A DNA stretch of 64,000 bases from a virus (Duplodnaviria; Caudoviricetes). The number at the start of each line of letters is the position of its first letter. The first letter of the stretch is position 1. The DNA lies in IMG/VR virus record IMGVR_UViG_3300007151_000001, positions 32,352 to 96,351 of that record; one strand, written 5' to 3'. The notes under the pieces were generated by a model that ran no database searches, had not been told where the DNA came from, and saw only the letters and a list, made by a program, of their open reading frames with translations. This document shows, in pieces, positions 11,040-56,630 of the stretch. A program made the position numbers and the translations under genes.

Positions 11040-11111
11040 TAGCCCCGACGGGAATCGAACCCGCTAGAACCGCGTCTAAAGCACGGCGTGTATCCATTGC
11101 ACCTCGGGGCC
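11040..11111 (-). tRNA. tRNA with UUA anticodon (putative ochre suppressor)
   Basis: Full cloverleaf: GGCCCCG/CGGGGCT, D-loop AATGGAT, anticodon arm CCGTG-CT-TTA-GA-CGCGG, T-arm GCGGG-TTCGATT-CCCGT; 72 nt. Confidence 0.75.
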
Positions 11112-13362: not shown

Positions 13363-14181
13363 CTACAACTCCCGCATAGCCCCTAGCCAGTCCATATCGG
13401 CGGCTTCGTCCAAATGCATGACGGGCCGGGGGTTGTCCGTCCCGTCATGGGGCACGTCTTCCGCCCCGACCAACTGTCGGGCCGTGCGATACGGGCTGGG
13501 CCGGCAATAGGCGAACCAGGGCAGATGCCAGTAGGGGGGCGTCCACGGCAGATATTGATAGACGGGCGGGAAGACGTCGAAATCGTCGCCCCGGATGTCT
13601 CGGCCATGCAGATGCGCAAAGGGCACGGTACGTCCCGTCAGAACCAAATCTCCCGCATCCGTGGGTGCTTGGATAGGCGCCACCTGCCATTGGGCGACGC
13701 GGCCACGGCCCGCCTTGGCATCGGCGCCGACATAGGTGATGATTTGGAGTTCCGCCTGCAAGCGTTCCGGGTCGGCGAGAGCCAAGCACCCGATACGGGC
13801 AGTATGCGTCAAGCGGCGGCTCAACCGCTTCACCTTCCAGCGGCCCACCTTTTTCTGGACATTGCGCTGGCCGGGCCGTACCCGATGCATGCGATAGTCG
13901 GGGATACGGGTATGGGTGTAGACCGTGGAGTGCGTCACGGGCGTCTCGGGGACCAAAGGCGTACATGCCCAGAGAGGTTTGCCCTCAAGGGTATCCCGCA
14001 AGAACAAGGAGGGCAAATCGACAATCTGCAACCCGGCCTGCTGTGTGGAACGGTCGAAGTAGAGGAATGACAGCATGCTGTCCAACTGCAGACTGTCTGC
14101 CGGGGCGTGCGTAATGTACGGCGTGATGAGCCGGGCTTGCACGTGTACGAGGGTGAAGGTCTGGGCACCTTGGAGAGACAT
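13363..14181 (-). CDS. csf3: Type IV CRISPR Cas5-family subunit Csf3
   Basis: V.ARL.TP...LQLDSML N-terminus, LWACT, Gly-rich loop VGADAKAGRGRV.QW and PPYW motif; operon context. Confidence 0.75.
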   Translation of the reverse strand: MSLQGAQTFTLVHVQARLITPYITHAPADSLQLDSMLSFLYFDRSTQQAGLQIVDLPSLFLRDTLEGKPLWACTPLVPETPVTHSTVYTHTRIPDYRMHRVRPGQRNVQKKVGRWKVKRLSRRLTHTARIGCLALADPERLQAELQIITYVGADAKAGRGRVAQWQVAPIQAPTDAGDLVLTGRTVPFAHLHGRDIRGDDFDVFPPVYQYLPWTPPYWHLPWFAYCRPSPYRTARQLVGAEDVPHDGTDNPRPVMHLDEAADMDWLGAMREL

Positions 14182-14945
14182 CAGAATGGCGTATAGCCCG
14201 ACTCGAACTTTTTCATGTCAGGTACCCGCTGCAATACGGCGGTCCAGGTCTGAGGCCACAGTTGACGAATGGCATCCACGGCCCCTGCTTGGATGGCGGG
14301 CAAATAGGTGAAGGGGCCGACTCGCTGTCGCTCCGGGGGAATGCCGGCAGCGCGCATGCGGTCGTACACGGCATTGTAGGGCACGGCATAGGCCGCCAGA
14401 TAGGCCCAGATATCCGTGTCGGTCCAATCGTGCAACGGATTGCATACCAGCTGCGTAGATTTCCGCTGATACGCCGGTCCATGTCGCACGAAATGCCACG
14501 CCCGGTCTTGCGACTCGGTAGCCCGCAGTCCTAGCAACAAGCCTCGATACCCCAACCGCACCCCGAGGGGCACGCCGTTGGGTTCCATGACCTGCAACGG
14601 CGGGTCAGGGTCGGGCGGCGGCCAATGGTCGAATTCCACGCCCGGCGCAATCTCGTACCGCTGACGCACGGCCACATGGTGCAACAACGGCGTCTGGGCG
14701 ACGAAGCGCCGGGTCTCGGGCAACACCGTGAACTCTTCGTCCTGATAGAGACCCGGCAATTGAGGGTCGATTTGGCGGGCCATGTGCAGCAGCACCGTGC
14801 TGTCCTTGCCGCCGGAAAAGGCAACTACGGTATCCGGGGTCTCGGCCAAGTGCGTACGGAGCAGGTCTTGGGCTTGCTGTACGCGCCGCCGGAAGAGATC
14901 CGTGCGGCTATGGGCTTGATAGCCGAGTCGGGTCAAACGGTCCAT
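14181..14945 (-). CDS. cysH: CysH-like PAPS reductase family protein of type IV-B systems
   Basis: VAFSGGKDSTV PP-loop, GLRA.ES..R, NPL.DWT..DIWAY and Y..VYD motifs; ATG 2 nt after the csf2 stop. Confidence 0.85.
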   Translation of the reverse strand: MDRLTRLGYQAHSRTDLFRRRVQQAQDLLRTHLAETPDTVVAFSGGKDSTVLLHMARQIDPQLPGLYQDEEFTVLPETRRFVAQTPLLHHVAVRQRYEIAPGVEFDHWPPPDPDPPLQVMEPNGVPLGVRLGYRGLLLGLRATESQDRAWHFVRHGPAYQRKSTQLVCNPLHDWTDTDIWAYLAAYAVPYNAVYDRMRAAGIPPERQRVGPFTYLPAIQAGAVDAIRQLWPQTWTAVLQRVPDMKKFESGYTPF

Positions 14946-14947
14946 CG

Positions 14948-15793
14948 TCAGCTCAACTGCACGCGGTCCGTACCGAGGGTCCCGTCCAATAGGCCCTGCT
15001 GCATGGCGGCGTGATGCGTAGCGAGATGGTCCTGCCACGGGCCGATGTCCGTCGGCCCCTCCAACTGCTGCCAATGCACGCGGCCCCGACCCTGGCTGGC
15101 CCGCGCCCCGATGTATTGGTCCCAGGCTTGCAGTGCTGCCCTGCCCGCGGCGACGACTGCCGGCGTAGACCAGCGGTCGAAGAGCAGCTCGACCCAGATC
15201 TGGGTGCCGGCGGCCAACGTCTCGTACTGAAACAGCATTTGATTGCCGCTGGCGACGTCGCCCGTGCCCCGGGTGCGCACTTCGTCTTGGACCAGATCCC
15301 AAATGCTGATATCGGGCACCTCGAGTTCGGGGGCCAGCAGTCCCAATTTTTCTTGATTTTCCCGACAGACGACCAGAGCCAACACTTTGAGGTCGCTGCG
15401 GGGGAGCAGGAACGCGTCTACGCTGCCGCCGAGCAGCCGGAAGTTCGGATAGAGATCGAAGATCTGTTGGGCGTACTCGTTTTCCGCCGCCGGCGCCTTG
15501 CTGCCCTGCTTGAGCGAGCCGCCGGCATACAGCAGATTGACCGCACTCTGGCTCAAGCCGCCCACCGGAATTTCCAGCTGTTGCAGCAGCCTGTCGGCCA
15601 AAGGCGTGCGCAGCATGACGCTGCGCAAGGCGTTGGCCGACAGGCAGGGCATGCGCACGGGTACGCCGTCAATCACCTCCAGTTGCCGCATAAAGAGCGT
15701 GGTGTTGCCTTGGGTGGACAGCGTATCGCCGTGGGCCACCGGGGAAAGGGTTTCGAGCCGCAGCGTGATACGCGGCGGGGCTTCCAGGGTCAT
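14948..15793 (-). CDS. csf2: Type IV CRISPR Cas7-family backbone subunit Csf2
   Basis: LETLSPVAHG...GN..LF.R, P.LSANALR...R, LY.GG.L, QM.FQYETL..G and Gly-loop IGARASQGRG. Confidence 0.85.
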   Translation of the reverse strand: MTLEAPPRITLRLETLSPVAHGDTLSTQGNTTLFMRQLEVIDGVPVRMPCLSANALRSVMLRTPLADRLLQQLEIPVGGLSQSAVNLLYAGGSLKQGSKAPAAENEYAQQIFDLYPNFRLLGGSVDAFLLPRSDLKVLALVVCRENQEKLGLLAPELEVPDISIWDLVQDEVRTRGTGDVASGNQMLFQYETLAAGTQIWVELLFDRWSTPAVVAAGRAALQAWDQYIGARASQGRGRVHWQQLEGPTDIGPWQDHLATHHAAMQQGLLDGTLGTDRVQLS

Positions 15794-16182
15794 GAGGCGT
15801 CGTCTCCTTGGCGGCGTTGCCGCTTGTGGGTATCGTGGACATGCCGCGCCAACAGGATCAACGTCTGCGTCTGGGTCCGGTACAGTTGCAGCGCATCGGG
15901 CGACAGGTCACGTAACAGGGCGAGCAGCGTTTCGGGGCGACCCGCCGCCGGCCAACGCATATGCGCCGCCAGCTTGTCCCAGAAAAGACGGGGCCGGTCG
16001 CTCTGCAAAGCCGCAATGCGTACCCGGTCTTCGAGCCGCACGAAGCGGGTAGGACCCTCGAGCACGCCCACTCCGTCGTAGGTGTTGTACTGGTCGAGGG
16101 CATAGGCCAGCAGGGACACGGCTTGTTGTTCCGGCGGCGTCAAATCGGCAGTCAGGTCGGTGTCAAGGTCACTAATGTTCAC
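15790..16182 (-). CDS. csf4: Type IV-B small subunit Csf4 (Cas11-like)
   Basis: Small helical protein (FWDKL) coupled to csf2 by an ATGA overlap; start codon uncertain. Confidence 0.65.
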   Translation of the reverse strand: MNISDLDTDLTADLTPPEQQAVSLLAYALDQYNTYDGVGVLEGPTRFVRLEDRVRIAALQSDRPRLFWDKLAAHMRWPAAGRPETLLALLRDLSPDALQLYRTQTQTLILLARHVHDTHKRQRRQGDDAS

Positions 16183-16277
16183 TTTCGGATTCCTTGGTTC
16201 AGTGTTTCACCGGTGTCTGCCCGACCAGAGTCGGCTTGTACGACACCTCCCCACCTAACGACGCCGTGACACGCGCC
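16167..16277 (-). ncRNA. Stand-alone omegaRNA / single-guide-like RNA, second copy of the scaffold of the 54344..56044 nuclease
   Basis: 16277-16193 aligns to 55954-56039 at 78/86 nt with a compensatory change CCAAC/GTTGG to CCGAC/GTCGG; continues GAATCC-GAAA-GTGAACATTA-GTGACC, ending like the array-2 repeat. Confidence 0.8.
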
Positions 16278-16287
16278 GGAACTGAGC

Positions 16288-16995
16288 CTACTCCTCGGCA
16301 TAGGCCATGAGCAACGCGGGGATGAAATCGGCGTCGTCGCGGCGGGCTGCCACTTGCATGGCGTCGGCTTCGTGGCGCCAGCGCAGATAGCGGGCCGGCG
16401 TCTTCCATTGCCCGCGCAATTCGCTCTTCGTCACGCCCTGCGCCAGCAACCGGCTCATGCGCTGTACGAGGTCGTCTGTGCGCTGGGGATGCAGGGCGAT
16501 GCGCTGCGAGATGTCGTAATGCAGCGCATGCACGTATACAGCGGCCTGAGACGTGAATTCGACCAACGGCCACAACCGCGGTTTGGTGTCTGCCGTCATC
16601 AAGCCCGCCCCGTAGCAACGAGGCGTCATGGTCGGCAAGAGCGTTTTCCATGTCACCCTGTCGGGGTGCGGTGCGAACGTCGGCCAGACCACCGACCCGT
16701 CCTGTACCCAGAACGAGCGATTGCTGGTCATGCCTTTGGCTTTGGTATGCCCATAGAACCAGGCACACGCGGGGCAGATGTACCGGCTGAAGCGCAGATT
16801 TTCCGCATGCCGGGTGAAGGTGGACGTCTCGATTTGGGTCACGGGCACGGCTTGCGCCGTAGGCCGGCCACAGGTCGCACAAGGCGTATCCGGGGGCACG
16901 TCTTCCGGCTGATGTTTCGCCGCCAGGGGCGGGCAGCCCAAGGCTTCCCAGACGGCCTGGGATACGGAACGGGGCAACGCGGAAGACGACAGCAT
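16288..16995 (-). CDS. csf1: Type IV Cas8-like large subunit Csf1
   Basis: Zn-finger CATCG...TFT......ICPAC, NRS, and KPRLW motif; first gene of the operon. Confidence 0.7.
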   Translation of the reverse strand: MLSSSALPRSVSQAVWEALGCPPLAAKHQPEDVPPDTPCATCGRPTAQAVPVTQIETSTFTRHAENLRFSRYICPACAWFYGHTKAKGMTSNRSFWVQDGSVVWPTFAPHPDRVTWKTLLPTMTPRCYGAGLMTADTKPRLWPLVEFTSQAAVYVHALHYDISQRIALHPQRTDDLVQRMSRLLAQGVTKSELRGQWKTPARYLRWRHEADAMQVAARRDDADFIPALLMAYAEE

Positions 16996-48843: not shown

Positions 48844-50199
48844 GTGCCTGCCGCCTCCAGTATAGTTGAAGACACCAAGCCTCGCACTTTACGCTTGCGC
48901 TTGTTGCCGGGCACCCGTGCCAACGGCGAATACTTGGCGGGCTTGGCTGGGGCCAATCGCGCCGTCTGGAACCACTTCGTAGCCCTGAACCAAGAACGGT
49001 CTCGTCATCACCGCAACTGGCGGGATTACCGTATCGGCCCAGAACCAGCCCCGCCGCAATACCGTCGCTATTCCATGCAAAAAGAATTCACGCAGTTGCG
49101 GCGGGAATGGCCTTGGTTGCAGAAATACAGCAGCGACGAAGTCCGATATTGCCTGAAGTATCTGGAAGACACATACAAAGCCCATTTCAAGGACCCGGAA
49201 GAAAAGGGGTGGCCGAAATTTAAAGCCAAACATTTTGCGACGCCTGCCTTCACGGTTTCTCAAGGCAAGATCCAATCTGGGTGTCTGTGGATCCCCAAAT
49301 GCGGTTGGATGCGCCTGCAAGGGGAGCGGCTGTATGCCGGCTGTCAGGTCAAGACCGTGCGGGTACGGCAAGAAGGCTCGCCCCAGAGGCCCAAGTGGTA
49401 CGCCTATGTCTGCTATGACGTTCCTGTGTCCCAACTTCGTCAGGGAGCGCAGACAGGCATCGTGGGGGTCGACCGCGGCGTTACCGATGCCCTGATGGAC
49501 AGCTGCGGCGAGGCGTATCGGATGCCGGACGTATCCCGCCTGGAAGCCAAGAAGAGACGCTACGAACGCATCAAGTCACGGCGGCGCAAAGGGTCGGCGC
49601 GCCGAAGACGTATCGTAGGTCGTCTGGCCAAGATCCATCGCAAGATACGGCGGATCCGGGATACGGCCACGCACCTACACAGTCGCCAGTTGGCGGACAA
49701 GGCGCATACCATCGTCTTCGAATATCTGAAAATCAAGCAGATGACGAAATCTGCGAAAGGCACGCAAGCCGATCCCGGCCAGAACGTCAAAGCCAAGGCC
49801 GGCCTCAATCGTGAAATTCTGGCCGCCGGATGGGGCGGGACGGTTGCCAAGACGTCGTACAAGGCGGGGCGGGTCTTGCAAGTCCCGGCTGCCTATACCA
49901 GTCAAACCTGCAGCCGTTGCGGCTGCGTAGCGAAGGAGAGTCGCCAGGGGAAACGATTTCGGTGTATCGATTGTGACTTCATGGCAGACGCCGATCAGAA
50001 TGCGTCTGTCAACATCGAGCGATTGGGAAGAGAACAATTGATCGCTCAGGGCATTCCTAGGGATGCTGTTTGGCCCATGTCGCGGGGGCCGCTGCCCAGG
50101 GAGAGGCGTTCTCGTCAGAGACCTCGACGATCTGCGGAACCAGTTGTTCAACCAGACCAACCGACCAACCTTGTCCAGCGGTCGTTATGGTTTGGCTGA
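48844..50199 (+). CDS. tnpB: CRISPR-associated TnpB-like RuvC nuclease 1 (451 aa; nascent type V)
   Basis: RuvC-I VGVDRG, RuvC-II VFEYL..KQMTKSAKG, Zn-finger SQTCSRCG...CIDC, RuvC-III ADQNASVNI; the array starts after a single base following the stop. Confidence 0.9.
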   Translation: MPAASSIVEDTKPRTLRLRLLPGTRANGEYLAGLAGANRAVWNHFVALNQERSRHHRNWRDYRIGPEPAPPQYRRYSMQKEFTQLRREWPWLQKYSSDEVRYCLKYLEDTYKAHFKDPEEKGWPKFKAKHFATPAFTVSQGKIQSGCLWIPKCGWMRLQGERLYAGCQVKTVRVRQEGSPQRPKWYAYVCYDVPVSQLRQGAQTGIVGVDRGVTDALMDSCGEAYRMPDVSRLEAKKRRYERIKSRRRKGSARRRRIVGRLAKIHRKIRRIRDTATHLHSRQLADKAHTIVFEYLKIKQMTKSAKGTQADPGQNVKAKAGLNREILAAGWGGTVAKTSYKAGRVLQVPAAYTSQTCSRCGCVAKESRQGKRFRCIDCDFMADADQNASVNIERLGREQLIAQGIPRDAVWPMSRGPLPRERRSRQRPRRSAEPVVQPDQPTNLVQRSLWFG

Positions 50200-50200
50200 A
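50078..50200 (+). ncRNA. omegaRNA/tracr-like scaffold overlapping the 3' end of nuclease 1
   Basis: GGGGCCGCTGCC...GAGG-CGT-TCTC-GTCA-GAGA-CCTC...GGAAC nested hairpin resembling TnpB 3'-end RNAs; GTCGC at 50079-50083 is complementary to the repeat end GCGAC. Confidence 0.6.
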
Positions 50201-50433
50201 CCCTCAACTCGCGCACGCGCACGAGGGCGACCGTTGCGAATACGTAATCGTCGGGCGCCGTGTAATCGCCCCTCAACTCGCGCACGCGCACGAGGGCGAC
50301 CATTTCCCCCATGATGATGTCGAGCTCGTGCGGCCCCTCAACTCGCGCACGCGCACGAGGGCGACCTGCAGATCCAGCCACTTAGACATCATGCCCGCAT
50401 CCCCTCAACTCGCGCACGCGCACGAGGGCGACC
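50201..50433 (+). CRISPR. CRISPR array 1: 4 repeats, 3 spacers
   Basis: Identical 32-nt CCCTCAACTCGCGCACGCGCACGAGGGCGACC at 50201, 50270, 50335 and 50402; unique spacers of 37, 33 and 35 nt (one less each if the preceding C belongs to the repeat). Confidence 0.95.
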
Positions 50434-54343: not shown

Positions 54344-56044
54344 ATGGCGGTGGGAGCACTAGCGACAGACCTAGGACATCTTCCCCTTTTCGACTATGCC
54401 CGTAGGCAAGCGGCGGGGCAGTCCAGTATGCCGCGGGTATCGCCTGTCTACAGGCCGGTGCGCTACAGGATTTACCCGATGACTTCCGATAATGCCCGGT
54501 ACTGGGAAGAAATCGACGCGGCCCGCTGCGCCGTGCGCAACCGGTGTCGGGCTTTGCGCAAGGCTAGAGCGCGCCTGTATGCGGCTTGTAGCCAACCCGC
54601 GGACGAACAGACCGAATTGCTGCAAGACGCGGAGTTTACCCGCAAGCTGGCCTTCCTGCGTCAGCACTTGGAATTGCTTTGCGCTAGCGCGTCGGGCCGA
54701 AAATACGCAGAACAGCTGCTCGCAGTCCTGAACTGGTTTGAGGGGCACCGTACCGCTCCGGTCCCGCGCATGCCAAGCAACAAGAGACTGGACTCGTGGG
54801 TAGCGTTGTGTGCAGACTTCACAGTGTTTTACGACTGCATAATGCCGTGGCTGAAGCAGTACCCTTATGGTGCGGTGCGGTCGGTGCTGAAAGACATGGC
54901 TACCACCTACAAGAACGCATACGACGACTCCCAGCCCAATGCGCGGTTGCCGAAGTATCACGATCCCGCTGAAGATGGGAAACGGCACAAGGGCTTTACT
55001 TTGCTTGACGGTGCGAAGGTCGAAGACGGGTGGGTGTATGTCCCGGGAACCCGAGACCAGAAAGGGACCTGGCATCTATTTCGCCGGCGCGGGGACAACA
55101 AATTCGAATCGTATCCTATCGGTCCTGTGCGGGTCTGGCAGGAACGGCAACGTGGGCGCAGGCGTGCGCGGTGGTTCATTACGCTGTGGTATAAAGTGCC
55201 GTGCAACGTGCTGTACGCGGATGTCGCAGATACCGGGCTAAGGGGGTTGGATCGAAATTCCGCGGAGGGAGAGACTGCGGCTCCTTATGTAGACAGTACG
55301 GGACATGTCTGGAGTGTGCCGAATACCGAGCGCTTGGAGGAACGAAAGAAGCGCCTGCAACGCAAAGCGGCTAAACAAGAGGGCAAGAACCGCAAGACCA
55401 AGGCCGCGGGGTCACGGAATTGGCATAAGACGCAGGCAAAGATACGTTGCATCGACGCCAAGATTGCCGCGGTTTGGCATCACGCCCTGCAAGAAATGAC
55501 TACGGAGATGAAACGCAACGCTCGGTATTGGGGGATCGAAAATCTGAACTTGCTCGGGATGACTACTTCCGGGAAGGGCAGCGTGGAAGAGCCAGGGAAG
55601 AACGTCAAAGCGATTGCCGCCAAGAACCGGGGGATGAGAGCCGCCCGGTTGGGGAAAGCGCAAGACATGCTGGAATACAAGTTGCCTGCGGGGCACTTGA
55701 TCGGCGTGCATGCCGCCTATACCAGTCAGCAATGTAGCGATTGCGGGTATACGGACAAAAAGAACCGGCTGTCGCGGGCCGTCTTCCGCTGTGGAAGTTG
55801 CGGATTGGAACTGCATGCGGATTGGAATGCTGCGCGGAATATTGCGCAGCGCGCCCTGGAGCAGTTGAAGGCGGGGGACGTATCTGCCGATGATCCGCGA
55901 CATAAGGAAATAGCCAAATTGGCGGTGGCTTTACTGGAGCCGTCGATGTTGGAGGCGCGTGTCACGGCGTCTTTAGGTGGGGATGGTGTCGTGCAATCCA
56001 ACTCCGGTTGGGCAGACACCGGTGAAGCACTGAACCAAGTTTGA
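54344..56044 (+). CDS. CRISPR-associated TnpB/Cas12f-like RuvC nuclease 2 (566 aa) with expanded N-terminal REC region
   Basis: RuvC-I RGLDRN, RuvC-II WGIENL...GMT.SGKGS, Zn-finger SQQCSDCG...CGSCG, RuvC-III ADWNAARNI; phage-type ACACAGGAG RBS and TGTGATACAAT promoter. Confidence 0.9.
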   Translation: MAVGALATDLGHLPLFDYARRQAAGQSSMPRVSPVYRPVRYRIYPMTSDNARYWEEIDAARCAVRNRCRALRKARARLYAACSQPADEQTELLQDAEFTRKLAFLRQHLELLCASASGRKYAEQLLAVLNWFEGHRTAPVPRMPSNKRLDSWVALCADFTVFYDCIMPWLKQYPYGAVRSVLKDMATTYKNAYDDSQPNARLPKYHDPAEDGKRHKGFTLLDGAKVEDGWVYVPGTRDQKGTWHLFRRRGDNKFESYPIGPVRVWQERQRGRRRARWFITLWYKVPCNVLYADVADTGLRGLDRNSAEGETAAPYVDSTGHVWSVPNTERLEERKKRLQRKAAKQEGKNRKTKAAGSRNWHKTQAKIRCIDAKIAAVWHHALQEMTTEMKRNARYWGIENLNLLGMTTSGKGSVEEPGKNVKAIAAKNRGMRAARLGKAQDMLEYKLPAGHLIGVHAAYTSQQCSDCGYTDKKNRLSRAVFRCGSCGLELHADWNAARNIAQRALEQLKAGDVSADDPRHKEIAKLAVALLEPSMLEARVTASLGGDGVVQSNSGWADTGEALNQV

Positions 56045-56066
56045 ATCTCATTCCCAGAAATTGTGA
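55954..56066 (+). ncRNA. tracrRNA-like scaffold with terminal anti-repeat
   Basis: Hairpin GGTGTC...CCAAC-TCCG-GTTGG...GACACC (55985-56020); GTCAC at 55961-55965 complements the repeat end; 56044-56066 AATCTCATTCCCAGAAATTGTGA pairs with the repeat core; duplicated at 16193-16277. Confidence 0.75.
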
Positions 56067-56089
56067 AAAGTGGTTTTTGTGAGTCAAGG

Positions 56090-56630
56090 GTCACAATCAT
56101 AATTTCGATTGGGAAGTGATTGTGACCCCCAGCGCCTTCGCATTGTCTACGATGGTATCGTCACAATCATAATTTCGATTGGGAAGTGATTGTGACCAAT
56201 GCGGAAGTTGAAGACATGCCCCGTCTCGAAGTCACAATCATAATTTCGATTGGGAAGTGATTGTGACCCCCCACAGGTTGAGGAATGCGCGGGCGAGCCG
56301 TTGTCACAATCATAATTTCGATTGGGAAGTGATTGTGACCCCAGGGGTTGCACCAGATGCCCGGCCCCCGCGAGTCACAATCATAATTTCGATTGGGAAG
56401 TGATTGTGACCTGTAGTGATCGTCGTAGGTACTAGGACACACGGGGTGTCACAATCATAATTTCGATTGGGAAGTGATTGTGACCCTTCGTCTTCCACAG
56501 CGCCGTCGCGGCAGGCGTCATGTCACAATCATAATTTCGATTGGGAAGTGATTGTGACCATGCCGTGAGTAGCAGACGCTCATGTGGGTATCGTCACAAT
56601 CATAATTTCGATTGGGAAGTGATTGTGACC
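56090..56630 (+). CRISPR. CRISPR array 2: 8 repeats, 7 spacers
   Basis: Identical 38-nt GTCACAATCATAATTTCGATTGGGAAGTGATTGTGACC at 56090, 56160, 56231, 56303, 56374, 56448, 56522 and 56593; spacers of 32, 33, 34, 33, 36, 36 and 33 nt. Confidence 0.98.

What the first reader, a model, noticed from the sequence alone, without database searches (positions are those of the whole stretch)
16147..16277. Natural single-guide copy of a Cas12-like nuclease's RNA scaffold embedded inside a type IV-B operon
Seen: the 105-nt gap between csf1 and csf4, read on the minus strand, matches the 3' end of nuclease 2 (55954-56039) at 78/86 nt. The differences include a compensatory A-U to G-C pair (CCAAC/GTTGG to CCGAC/GTCGG) and a loop change, so RNA structure rather than coding appears conserved. 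In place of anti-repeat plus separate repeat, this copy continues GAATCC-GAAA-GTGAACATTA-GTGACC. That reuses the start of the anti-repeat, a GAAA loop and the same GTGACC end as the array-2 repeat. The putative guide is TTGACACCGACCTGACTGCC (16166-16147), which is the 5' end of csf4. Known: TnpB omegaRNAs take their guide from flanking DNA, and type IV-B loci usually lack arrays and their RNA ligand is unresolved. Inference: the phage carries both split (tracr+crRNA) and fused forms of one guide scaffold. The fused copy could direct homing against sibling phages with an empty csf1-csf4 junction, regulate the IV-B operon, or be an RNA bound by the Csf complex. I know of no described physical link between TnpB/Cas12 guide RNAs and type IV-B.
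Basis: partly seen in the sequence, partly recalled or inferred. Interest (0 to 1): 0.95.

Follow-up and report, generated by a model that had tools for sequence, protein, structure and literature searches.

The report
Orphan Cas12-type guide scaffold in phage operon
A phage carries a second, stand-alone copy of the guide-RNA scaffold of one of its small Cas12/TnpB-like nucleases, inserted between two genes of its type IV-B CRISPR operon; it has the layout of a ready-made single guide RNA, but nothing yet shows that it is used.

Summary
Window 16277-16193 (minus) matches 55954-56039, the last 29 codons of nuclease 2, at 78 identical positions with 7 substitutions and 1 indel. These are the only two copies in the complete 96-kb phage genome.

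In 13 of 15 related operons csf1 overlaps cas11, and none carries the element, so it is an insertion.

Nuclease 2 has a real tracrRNA-plus-array system. The orphan copy keeps the 5' hairpin and the central stem. It has lost almost all of the anti-repeat. Its tail ends in GTGACC, like every array-2 repeat, which places a pseudoknot strand at -6..-2, as in the ISDra2 TnpB omegaRNA.

Differences between the copies largely spare the fold, with two compensatory pairs (simulation P = 0.002), but I cannot tell which lineage changed.

The tail is also cas11's ribosome-binding site, GTG start and first codons, and may partly be native cas11 sequence.

No relatives, RNA data or targets were found. My best reading is an unsplit, omegaRNA-like guide served in trans (confidence 0.4). 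A dead remnant is nearly as likely. The link to IV-B function is unsupported.

The parts
16193..16277 (-). Orphan copy of the nuclease-2 guide-RNA scaffold core (85 nt)
   Evidence: 78 identical of 87 columns to 55954-56039. The covariance model R1 scores it 113.9 bits.
16259..16278 (-). 5' hairpin C-GGCGC / loop GUGUCACG / GCGUC-G. Loop bases GUCAC (16270-16266) are the proposed 5' pseudoknot strand.
   Evidence: RNAalifold pairs columns 2-7 with 16-21. The closing pair is C-G here and A-U in system 2. System 1 has GUCGC at the aligned place, and its repeat ends GCGACC.
16212..16247 (-). Central stem-loop GGUGUC...CCGAC-UCUG-GUCGG...GACACC
   Evidence: Predicted in both copies. It holds the G-C/A-U compensatory pair.
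16167..16192 (-). Tail GAATCC-GAAA-GTGAACATTA-GTGACC. It holds the first 5 nt of the anti-repeat, then a stretch like the last 14 nt of the array-2 repeat with 2 insertions. GUGAC (16172-16168) is the proposed 3' pseudoknot strand at -6..-2.
   Evidence: Sequence. Local alignment to the repeat has shuffle p = 0.027. GTGACC occurs by chance within 40 nt with P about 0.011. The ISDra2 pseudoknot geometry is from a passage of PMC10097598.
16147..16166 (-). Putative guide, identical to the adjoining cas11 5' coding sequence
   Evidence: Sequence. No second match in the genome at up to 5 mismatches. A role as guide is inferred, not shown.
16180..16195 (-). cas11 Shine-Dalgarno AAGGA (16195-16191), an 8-nt spacer, and the GTG start (16182-16180), all inside the element
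   Evidence: ORF list; sequence; frame translations.
16288..16995 (-). csf1 (type IV Cas8-like large subunit). It ends ...FIPALLMAYAEE*, without the roughly 30-aa tail that overlaps cas11 in relatives.
   Evidence: PADLOC typeIV_Cas8, 5.1e-11. C-termini compared.
   Evidence: PADLOC typeIV_Cas11, 2.6e-7. 83 homologues found. N-termini aligned.
13363..15793 (-). Rest of the IV-B operon: csf2/Cas7 14948-15793, cysH-like 14181-15302 (longest ORF; the true start is probably later), csf3/Cas5 13363-14181
   Evidence: PADLOC typeIV_Cas7 5.9e-31 and typeIV_Cas5 1.3e-16. Pfam PAPS_reduct 4.9e-16.
54344..56044 (+). Nuclease 2: 566-aa Cas12f/TnpB-family RuvC nuclease. Its last 29 codons (55954-56039) are the reference copy of the scaffold core.
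   Evidence: Pfam PF07282 6e-17. NCBIfam guided_TnpB 109.9 bits against a cut-off of 100. PADLOC Cas12u4/Cas12f.
56044..56082 (+). Anti-repeat of the system-2 tracrRNA
   Evidence: Duplex with the repeat is -24.9 kcal/mol; 2 of 500 shuffled repeats do as well. The pairing covers repeat positions 2-32 and leaves GUGACC free.
56090..56630 (+). Array 2: 8 repeats of 38 nt with spacers of 32-36 nt
48844..50433 (+). Nuclease 1 (451 aa, 31% identical to nuclease 2) and array 1 (4 repeats). The first repeat starts 2 nt after the stop codon, so its first unit is physically fused to the scaffold.

Best explanation
The element is an orphan, unsplit (omegaRNA-like) copy of the guide-RNA scaffold of nuclease 2. 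It was inserted at the csf1/cas11 junction of the phage's type IV-B operon.

Shown:
- It is an insertion relative to every related operon examined.
- It carries the whole structured core of the scaffold: the 5' hairpin with the GUCAC loop and the central stem.
- It has lost the anti-repeat.
- It lies in sense orientation inside the operon.
- It now contains cas11's ribosome-binding site and GTG start.

Inferred:
- It is transcribed with the operon.
- Nuclease 2, encoded 38 kb away, binds it in trans. The loop GUCAC pairs with GUGAC at -6..-2, as in TnpB and Cas12f guides.
- The next 20 nt or so, which are the 5' end of cas11, then serve as the guide.
- As with a TnpB omegaRNA or an array spacer, the phage's own locus is spared. 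What precedes the target there is the scaffold or repeat end, not a TAM.
- A co-infecting relative with an insert-free junction would be cut. That would bias inheritance towards the insert-bearing allele (homing or exclusion).

The same RNA-protein contact would sit on cas11's SD, so a side effect on cas11 translation is likely.
For: - The match is real and discrete. 78 of 87 columns are identical, there are only 2 copies in the genome, and both edges are sharp. The 5' edge falls at the base of the 5' hairpin.
- It is an insertion. In 13 of 15 related loci with adjacent csf1 and cas11, the csf1 frame runs past the cas11 start. One has a 4-nt gap and one a 77-nt AT-rich gap. Here there are 105 nt, and Csf1 ends right after the conserved PALLxA motif and its GAGGAG. 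None of 27 IV-B loci has a scaffold hit.
- System 2 really is tracrRNA plus crRNA. The anti-repeat/repeat duplex is -24.9 kcal/mol and 2 of 500 shuffles do as well. The repeat's last GUGACC is left free.
- The orphan tail ends in the same GTGACC (chance about 0.011 within 40 nt). It aligns to the repeat 3' end (p = 0.027) after GAATC, the first 5 nt of the anti-repeat.
- The geometry fits. The pseudoknot strands sit at -104..-100 and -6..-2. In the ISDra2 omegaRNA they sit at -106..-102 and -6..-2 within a 116-nt scaffold (PMC10097598, passage).
- System 1 covaries: loop GUCGC with repeat end GCGACC.
- Substitutions largely spare the fold. On system 2's own MFE structure there are 2 compensatory pairs, 1 wobble-kept pair and 2 broken pairs. 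The simulated neutral mean is 3.5 broken, and P(2 or more compensatory) = 0.002.
- The single-base indel breaks the nuclease-2 reading frame in the orphan copy, so protein coding is not what is conserved (my reading).
- Nuclease 2 shows the D, E, D and CxxC...CxxC motifs aligned with nuclease 1 (my reading of the alignment).
Against: - There is no expression, binding or cleavage evidence. No sequencing run was listed.
- It is a single occurrence. Nuclease 2 has no homologue above 35% identity. Csf2 reaches about 50% and Cas11 49%. The scaffold has no relative in the viral or metagenome scans. Covariation therefore rests on 2 sequences.
- The compensatory changes cannot be polarised. They may all lie on the functional nuclease-2 copy.
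- MFE z-scores are ordinary (-0.59 and -0.46).
- The repeat:anti-repeat duplex (27 bp in the split form) is reduced to at most 3 A-U pairs. The 'GAAA loop' closes no predicted stem.
- The tail is under coding and translation constraint. AAGGA plus GTG form cas11's start. AGT GAC CTT GAC ACC GAC CTG parallels the L083 Cas11 start ATG AGC GAT CTC ACC CCG GAC CTG (MSDL..DL). GTGACC could therefore be native cas11 sequence and its likeness to the repeat a coincidence.
- The right boundary and the guide register are uncertain by about 10 nt. GUGAA-C at 16182-16177 is an alternative -6..-1.
- No TAM is known, and no target was found for the guide or for any of 10 spacers.
- No TnpA, serine recombinase or reverse transcriptase in the genome explains the insertion.
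Confidence: 0.4

Rival explanations
1. It is a dead remnant. A piece of a nuclease-2-type locus (a former IS right end with its omegaRNA, or a recombination product of the tracrRNA/array region) landed at the csf1/cas11 junction. It persists only because it now supplies cas11's ribosome-binding site and start codon. It has no RNA-level function of its own.
For: - The tail is cas11's SD, GTG start and N-terminus.
- The anti-repeat is gone, and no stable tail hairpin is predicted.
- MFE is ordinary.
- 2 pairs of system 2's own fold are broken in this copy.
- It is a single occurrence, with no transposase in the genome.
- The junction tolerates insertions elsewhere: L070 has 1.4 kb with ORFs there, and L072 has a 77-nt AT-rich spacer.
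- The compensatory changes may belong to the functional copy.
Against: - The 5' edge coincides with the base of the scaffold's first hairpin rather than an arbitrary point.
- 9% divergence has not disrupted the consensus stems. There are two compensatory pairs (P = 0.002 under random change).
- The pseudoknot strand GUGAC-C sits at the expected place.
- The RNA is made whenever the operon is, and its core is 91% identical to the nuclease's own. Binding is therefore hard to avoid biochemically (inference).
Confidence: 0.35
2. It is a cis-acting RNA site on the IV-B mRNA. Nuclease 2 binds (and perhaps trims) the scaffold within the csf1-cas11 transcript. This covers the AAGGA/GTG start of cas11 or splits the mRNA. 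Expression of Cas11/Csf2/CysH/Csf3 would then be tied to the level of free nuclease 2. The 'guide' is irrelevant.
For: - The element is in sense orientation inside the operon.
- The SD lies 2 nt after the conserved core, and the start codon lies inside the proposed scaffold.
- No independent promoter or terminator was predicted around the element.
- Recalled, not read here: TnpB is reported to process its own transcript into omegaRNA.
Against: - There is no evidence of regulation.
- It does not explain the repeat-like GTGACC end.
- It is a single occurrence.
- 0 of 10 related IV-B virus records carry a TnpB-family gene, so no general coupling exists.
Confidence: 0.12
3. It is the RNA ligand or assembly signal of the Csf (type IV-B) complex itself. 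The complex lacks an array and Cas6 and would use this structured RNA.
For: - Only its position inside the operon.
- The published IV-B complex assembled on heterogeneous non-CRISPR RNA, and the RNA that Csf3 would recognise is unknown (PMC7937560, passages).
Against: - None of 27 related IV-B loci has it, and in 13 of 15 with adjacent genes csf1 overlaps cas11. It cannot be a general IV-B component.
- Its sequence derives from a class 2 guide scaffold, not a class 1 repeat.
Confidence: 0.05

Closest known systems
TnpB omegaRNA, and gene-less IS200/IS605 derivatives (PATEs) whose omegaRNAs must be served in trans by a TnpB encoded elsewhere (Meers et al. preprint 10.1101/2023.03.14.532601, passages; ISDra2 structure PMC10097598, passages)
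   Same: - One continuous RNA: a scaffold of roughly 100-116 nt followed by a guide that is simply the adjoining DNA.
- A pseudoknot between a 5' segment and -6..-2.
- The reference copy overlaps the 3' end of the nuclease ORF.
- The orphan copy sits far from the nuclease gene.
   Different: - No left or right transposon ends, TAM or TEM were identified.
- There is no TnpA in the phage.
- The cognate nuclease runs a CRISPR array with a tracrRNA rather than sitting in an IS.
- The element lies inside an operon and carries a gene's SD and start codon.
TranC, the transposon-CRISPR intermediates (Jin et al., Cell 2025; known to me only as cited in PMC13565253 and in the preprint 10.1101/2025.09.28.678669, passages)
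   Same: Compact TnpB-like nucleases (roughly 300-600 aa) at the boundary between omegaRNA and tracrRNA+crRNA guides. The idea is that splitting one RNA gave the two-part guide.
   Different: Here the split form (55954-56082 plus the array) and an apparently unsplit form (16277-16147) sit at two loci of one phage genome. I have not read the primary paper or its supplements. I cannot say whether such orphan unsplit copies are listed there. Membership of nuclease 2 in a TranC clade was not tested.
Type V-F/V-U (Cas12f-like) tracrRNA:crRNA guides
   Same: - The effector hits Cas12f/Cas12u models.
- The tracrRNA lies next to the array, with a long bulged repeat:anti-repeat duplex.
- The repeat 3' tag is available for a pseudoknot.
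   Different: - No Cas1 in the genome.
- The tracrRNA core lies inside the effector ORF, as in TnpB.
- The orphan copy lacks the anti-repeat, so it cannot act as a second tracrRNA.
Natural single guides of Cas9: tracr-L (10.1101/2020.05.21.102756, title and start of abstract only) and phage-encoded vsgRNAs (10.64898/2026.06.01.729453, abstract)
   Same: A natural fusion of tracr-like and crRNA-like parts. The vsgRNAs are phage-encoded.
   Different: - Those belong to type II, are aimed at the cas9 promoter or sequester host Cas9, and have partial matches.
- Here the nuclease is the phage's own Cas12/TnpB-type enzyme.
- Here the guide is a perfect copy of the neighbouring gene start.
Type IV-B CRISPR-Cas (Csf1-Cas11-Csf2-Csf3 plus CysH-like)
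   Same: All five genes are present, with no adjacent array or Cas6-type gene noted.
   Different: - The gene order is csf1-cas11-csf2-cysH-csf3, whereas 15 of the 17 related loci with a csf3 hit have csf3 before their main cysH match.
- A 105-nt class-2 scaffold insert lies between csf1 and cas11, and Csf1 lacks the tail that overlaps cas11.

Membership tests
TnpB omegaRNA / PATE-borne omegaRNA | A single RNA with a scaffold followed directly by a guide equal to the flanking DNA | tested here: inconclusive
   The layout fits. The scaffold/flank boundary cannot be fixed within about 10 nt (16176 versus 16166). No RNA ends are known.
TnpB omegaRNA / PATE-borne omegaRNA | A pseudoknot between a 5' segment and nucleotides -6..-2 before the guide | tested here: met
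   By sequence only. GUCAC lies at 16270-16266 and GUGAC at 16172-16168, that is -104..-100 and -6..-2. This matches the ISDra2 geometry. System 1 covaries, GUCGC with GCGAC. Not shown physically.
TnpB omegaRNA / PATE-borne omegaRNA | Transposon left and right ends with TAM/TEM, and a TnpA able to move it | tested here: not met
   No Y1 transposase and no serine recombinase in the 96-kb genome. No terminal palindromes or TAM were identified. A host TnpA acting in trans cannot be excluded.
TnpB omegaRNA / PATE-borne omegaRNA | Bound and used by the cognate nuclease | not testable with these tools
   Needs RIP-seq and cleavage assays.
Type V CRISPR-Cas with tracrRNA (Cas12f-like) | A RuvC effector of the Cas12/TnpB family next to a CRISPR array | tested here: met
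   for the effector. 8 repeats at 56090-56630.
Type V CRISPR-Cas with tracrRNA (Cas12f-like) | An anti-repeat complementary to the repeat | tested here: met
   For the nuclease-2 locus: -24.9 kcal/mol, with 2 of 500 shuffles as good. For the orphan copy it is not met: only GAATC remains.
Type V CRISPR-Cas with tracrRNA (Cas12f-like) | An adaptation module (Cas1) | tested here: not met
   No Cas1 match in the genome. Cas2 and Cas4 were not searched.
Type IV-B CRISPR-Cas | Csf1, Cas11, Csf2 and Csf3 genes in one operon | tested here: met
   PADLOC hits of 5.1e-11, 2.6e-7, 5.9e-31 and 1.3e-16.
Type IV-B CRISPR-Cas | An associated CysH-like (PAPS reductase family) gene | tested here: met
   Pfam PF01507, 4.9e-16, 59.7 bits against a cut-off of 22.5.
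TranC (transposon-CRISPR intermediate) | Phylogenetic placement in a TranC clade, and use of both CRISPR-type and transposon-type guides | not tested
   The primary paper was not available to me. No reference sequences were fetched.

The most novel reading that the evidence does not exclude
One phage keeps both evolutionary states of a type V guide at once. The split tracrRNA+crRNA form sits at the nuclease locus. An unsplit, omegaRNA-like form is parked inside a type IV-B operon. The unsplit form works as a non-autonomous RNA-guided homing module: nuclease 2 cuts insert-free csf1/cas11 junctions of co-infecting relatives and the insert is copied in. It would be a protein-less 'gene drive' cassette that rides on, and perhaps tunes, a type IV-B operon.
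Probability: 0.15. Interest if true: 0.85.

Novelty: new variant of a known kind. Interest (0 to 1): 0.6.

Why it matters
If the RNA is active, it would be a natural single-guide form of a Cas12-type guide sitting beside the split form of the same scaffold in one genome. That would be a living example of the omegaRNA-to-tracrRNA/crRNA transition that so far has been argued from comparisons between systems. It would also give a compact natural sgRNA design for this nuclease: about 111 nt with almost no repeat:anti-repeat stem.

It would also be a case of a phage using an RNA-only module for homing or allele exclusion against relatives.

For type IV-B biology the bearing is weak. The insert is absent from all related operons examined, so it says little about what IV-B systems do in general.

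Tried and rejected
- Relatives of the scaffold. An exact 15-mer scan of viral contigs gave 56 loci. None extends beyond the seed by blastn. None extends beyond 20-28 nt, and none encodes a nuclease relative. The covariance model R1 found only the two known copies in the window plus 27 IV-B loci. The next hits were at E 1.8 and 10. Rfam gathering thresholds found only a tRNA.
- Relatives of the proteins. The search for related loci with nuclease 2 and with Csf1 in viral contigs found nothing. The 5.8-billion-protein search gave no nuclease-2 homologue above 35% identity.
- Targets. No match was found for the 20-, 16- or 12-nt guide elsewhere in the genome. The 7 array-2 spacers, the 3 array-1 spacers and a 34-nt guide matched nothing in any held locus. 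Array 2 and the whole IV-B operon found no match in the phage collection. No TAM could therefore be inferred.
- Expression. The look-up of sequencing runs listed no run, and no RNA holder was listed.
- Signals. The promoter and terminator scans around both copies showed nothing that sets off the element.
- Rejected reading, conserved coding piece. The indel shifts the frame, and tblastn sees the match in two frames.
- Rejected reading, remnant of a whole nuclease gene. No further nuclease-like translation lies upstream of 16277.
- Rejected reading, general IV-B/TnpB partnership. 0 of 10 related IV-B virus records have a TnpB-family match, though most of those records are fragments.
- Rejected reading, retro-insertion by a phage reverse transcriptase. 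No RVT_1 match.
- Rows left out. In one search, of the 17 loci with csf1 and cas11 hits, L069 (csf1 lies elsewhere) and L070 (1.4 kb between the genes) are not counted among the 15 adjacent pairs. L071 and L085 lack csf1 in the stretch held. L073-L080 are distant Csf2 relatives (25-28% identity) with no csf1 or cas11 hit. For L062, L065 and L084 the csf1 alignment stopped at residues 164-167, so my frame walk to the stop is less sure.
- Supplements of papers were closed and not consulted. Those of Jin et al. 2025 and of PMC10691335 might list orphan scaffolds.
Full report
**Setting.** The window is bases 32352-96351 of a 96,351-bp virus record with direct terminal repeats, rated 100% complete.

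On the minus strand lie five genes:
- csf1 (Cas8-like), 16288-16995
- cas11, 15790-16182
- csf2 (Cas7), 14948-15793
- a CysH-like PAPS-reductase gene, 14181-15302
- csf3 (Cas5), 13363-14181

PADLOC E-values are 5.1e-11, 2.6e-7, 5.9e-31 and 1.3e-16. Pfam PF01507 scores 4.9e-16. This is a type IV-B operon.

On the plus strand there are two Cas12f/TnpB-family nucleases:
- Nuclease 1, 48844-50199, 451 aa.
- Nuclease 2, 54344-56044, 566 aa.

They are 31% identical to each other. Each is followed by a small array: 4 repeats from 50201 and 8 repeats from 56090. The genome has no Cas1, Y1 transposase, serine recombinase or reverse transcriptase.

Minus strand 16277-16193 aligns with 55954-56039. There are 78 identical columns of 87, with 7 substitutions and one single-base indel. 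The blastn E-value is 1.9e-28 in the whole genome, where these are the only two copies. Identity drops to background at both edges.

In nuclease 2 the stretch encodes residues 536-565 of 566. It lies beyond the part that aligns with nuclease 1 or with any family model, which ends at about residue 516-523. In the orphan copy the indel shifts that frame. What is shared is therefore not a protein.

**System 2 is a tracrRNA plus crRNA system.** The 50 nt between the conserved block and the array pair with the repeat over 27 bp (56044-56082 against repeat positions 2-32). The duplex energy is -24.9 kcal/mol, against -12.2 ± 3.4 for shuffled repeats, and 2 of 500 shuffles do as well. The last six repeat bases, GUGACC, stay free.

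The conserved block begins with a hairpin, GGCGC-GUGUCACG-GCGUC. Its loop GUCAC is complementary to that free GUGAC.

Nuclease 1's tail has GUCGC at the aligned place, and its repeat ends GCGACC. The two systems thus covary as a pseudoknot would require.

In the ISDra2 TnpB omegaRNA the pseudoknot joins -106..-102 to -6..-2 of a 116-nt scaffold (PMC10097598, passage).

**Anatomy of the orphan copy.** It keeps the 5' hairpin (16278-16259) and the central stem-loop (16247-16212).

After the block, GAATC, which is the first 5 nt of the anti-repeat, follows directly. The rest of the anti-repeat is missing. The tail then reads CGAAAGTGAACATTAGTGACC.

This tail aligns to the last 14 nt of the repeat, with two insertions (shuffle p = 0.027). 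It does not align to the tracrRNA tail (p = 0.33).

GTGACC is expected within 40 nt by chance with P about 0.011. With the guide starting at 16166, the pseudoknot strands sit at -104..-100 and -6..-2, and the scaffold is 111 nt long.

- ViennaRNA predicts no stem closed by the GAAA.
- At most three A-U pairs survive of the repeat:anti-repeat duplex.
- The whole RNA folds no better than shuffles, with z = -0.59 for the orphan and -0.46 for the reference.

**It is an insertion.** I fetched 27 loci with Csf2 relatives, and 17 of them have both csf1 and cas11 hits.

Of the 15 loci in which the two genes are adjacent:
- In 13 the csf1 frame runs past the predicted cas11 start. In 10 of these the csf1 stop lies a constant 53-56 nt after the codon that aligns with our Cas11 residue 16.
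- One has a 4-nt gap.
- One has a 77-nt AT-rich gap.

Relatives' Csf1 ends ...FLPALLxAGVTKEEK, and the KEEK codons form cas11's Shine-Dalgarno. A tail read over cas11 follows. Ours ends ...FIPALLMAYAEE*, with GAGGAG at 16296-16291. Then come 13 nt, and then the scaffold.

None of the 27 loci has a scaffold-like hit with the covariance model built from the two copies. The requested "operons without the insert" are therefore all the relatives available. The closest are only about 50% identical in Csf2.

**The tail is also a gene start.** The cas11 ORF begins at GTG 16182, preceded by AAGGA at 16195-16191 with an 8-nt spacer. The TTG at 16166 is out of frame.

Most Cas11 homologues start at about our residue 7. 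That fits the first six codons coming from the insert (reading A, boundary at 16167/16166).

However, the Cas11 of L083 starts ATG AGC GAT CTC ACC CCG GAC CTG (MSDLTPDL). This parallels our ATT AGT GAC CTT GAC ACC GAC CTG. It suggests a native ATG, now ATT, at 16176, with AGTGACC as native cas11 sequence (reading B).

In reading B the preceding GUGAA-C still offers four pseudoknot pairs at -6..-2. The omegaRNA-like layout therefore survives either boundary. The exact guide register, and the weight of the GTGACC coincidence, do not.

**Is the fold under selection?** RNAalifold on the two copies gives 25 pairs. Two are compensatory (C-G/A-U closing the 5' hairpin and G-C/A-U in the central stem), one is U-A/U-G, and no other difference falls in a pair. 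That structure is fitted to both sequences, so I also used system 2's own MFE structure of 27 pairs.

On it, the orphan copy has 2 broken pairs, 2 compensatory pairs and 1 one-sided kept pair.

In 20,000 simulated copies with the same number and kind of changes, the mean is 3.5 broken pairs. P(at least 2 compensatory) is 0.002 and P(at least 1) is 0.09.

This shows that structure constrained at least one lineage. With no outgroup I cannot say it was the orphan's.

**Wider searches were blank:**
- Nuclease 2 has no homologue above 35% identity among 5.8 billion proteins.
- Motif scans of viral and metagenome contigs gave only chance seeds.
- No phage-collection match was found for the array or the operon.
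- No target was found for the guide or for any spacer.
- No sequencing run was listed.
- 0 of 10 related IV-B virus records carry a TnpB-family gene, though most are fragments.

**What it most likely is and does.**

Shown: a discrete, complete core of nuclease 2's guide scaffold. It lacks the anti-repeat and ends like a repeat. It is inserted in sense orientation at the csf1/cas11 junction, and it carries cas11's translation start.

Inferred:
- It is transcribed with the operon and bound in trans by nuclease 2.
- The adjoining cas11 sequence serves as guide.
- The phage's own locus is spared, because scaffold or repeat end rather than a TAM precedes the target. This is how arrays and IS ends are spared.
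- Insert-free junctions in related phages would be cut (TnpB-style homing or exclusion).

I put this at 0.4.

A dead remnant kept for its SD and start codon is at 0.35. A purely cis-acting nuclease-2 binding site on the mRNA is at 0.12. A Csf ligand is at 0.05.

**Comparison with what is known.** The nearest described things are:
- TranC intermediates and the RNA-splitting model (Jin et al. 2025, seen only as cited in PMC13565253 and 10.1101/2025.09.28.678669).
- Natural Cas9 single guides: tracr-L (search listing only) and phage vsgRNAs (abstract).

The published type IV-B complex binds heterogeneous RNA, and its specific ligand is unknown (PMC7937560, passages). Nothing here connects this element to that question beyond position.

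My five literature searches turned up no report of a class 2 guide scaffold inside a type IV operon. That is a statement about those searches only.

**Verdict.** It is an unusual single-genome case of a known kind of thing (an orphan, unsplit guide module). It has suggestive but not decisive signs of being functional.

Noticed in passing
window 50196-50232: In system 1 the first array repeat starts 2 nt after the nuclease-1 stop codon (TGA at 50197-50199, repeat from 50201). The first unit is therefore physically a scaffold-repeat-spacer fusion, with no separate anti-repeat region. The repeat itself can form a CCCTC/GAGGG hairpin followed by CGACC.
   Followed up: partly
window 56090-56127: The array-2 repeat is itself a perfect 10-bp palindrome, GTCACAATCA...TGATTGTGAC. 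Its 5' GUCAC competes with the tracrRNA loop GUCAC for the 3' GUGAC. In the cofold the repeat prefers the tracrRNA tail.
   Followed up: partly
L059, L061, L063, L064, L068, L081, L082 (offset 53 nt) and L062, L065, L066 (offset 56 nt): In related IV-B operons the csf1 frame runs 77-95 nt into cas11 and stops at a constant offset. A low-complexity Csf1 tail is read over the Cas11 N-terminus. The KEEK codons of Csf1 form cas11's Shine-Dalgarno.
   Followed up: partly
L070:3127-4540: One related operon has about 1.4 kb with at least one ORF between csf1 and cas11. By my reading the ORF begins with a PP-loop-like SGGLDSS motif. The same junction has therefore taken up other cargo.
   Followed up: no
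window 13363-15302: The cysH-like gene sits between csf2 and csf3 here. In 15 of the 17 related loci with a csf3 hit, csf3 comes first and the main cysH match follows it. The longest cysH ORF overlaps csf2 by 355 nt, so its true start is probably later.
   Followed up: partly
window 11040-11111 (-): The only Rfam hit at gathering threshold in the window is a tRNA (44.8 bits). I did not check this.
   Followed up: no
window 16193-16277 and 55954-56039: The two scaffold copies are inverted relative to each other and lie about 39.7 kb apart. Recombination between them would invert that segment. No evidence for or against.
   Followed up: no
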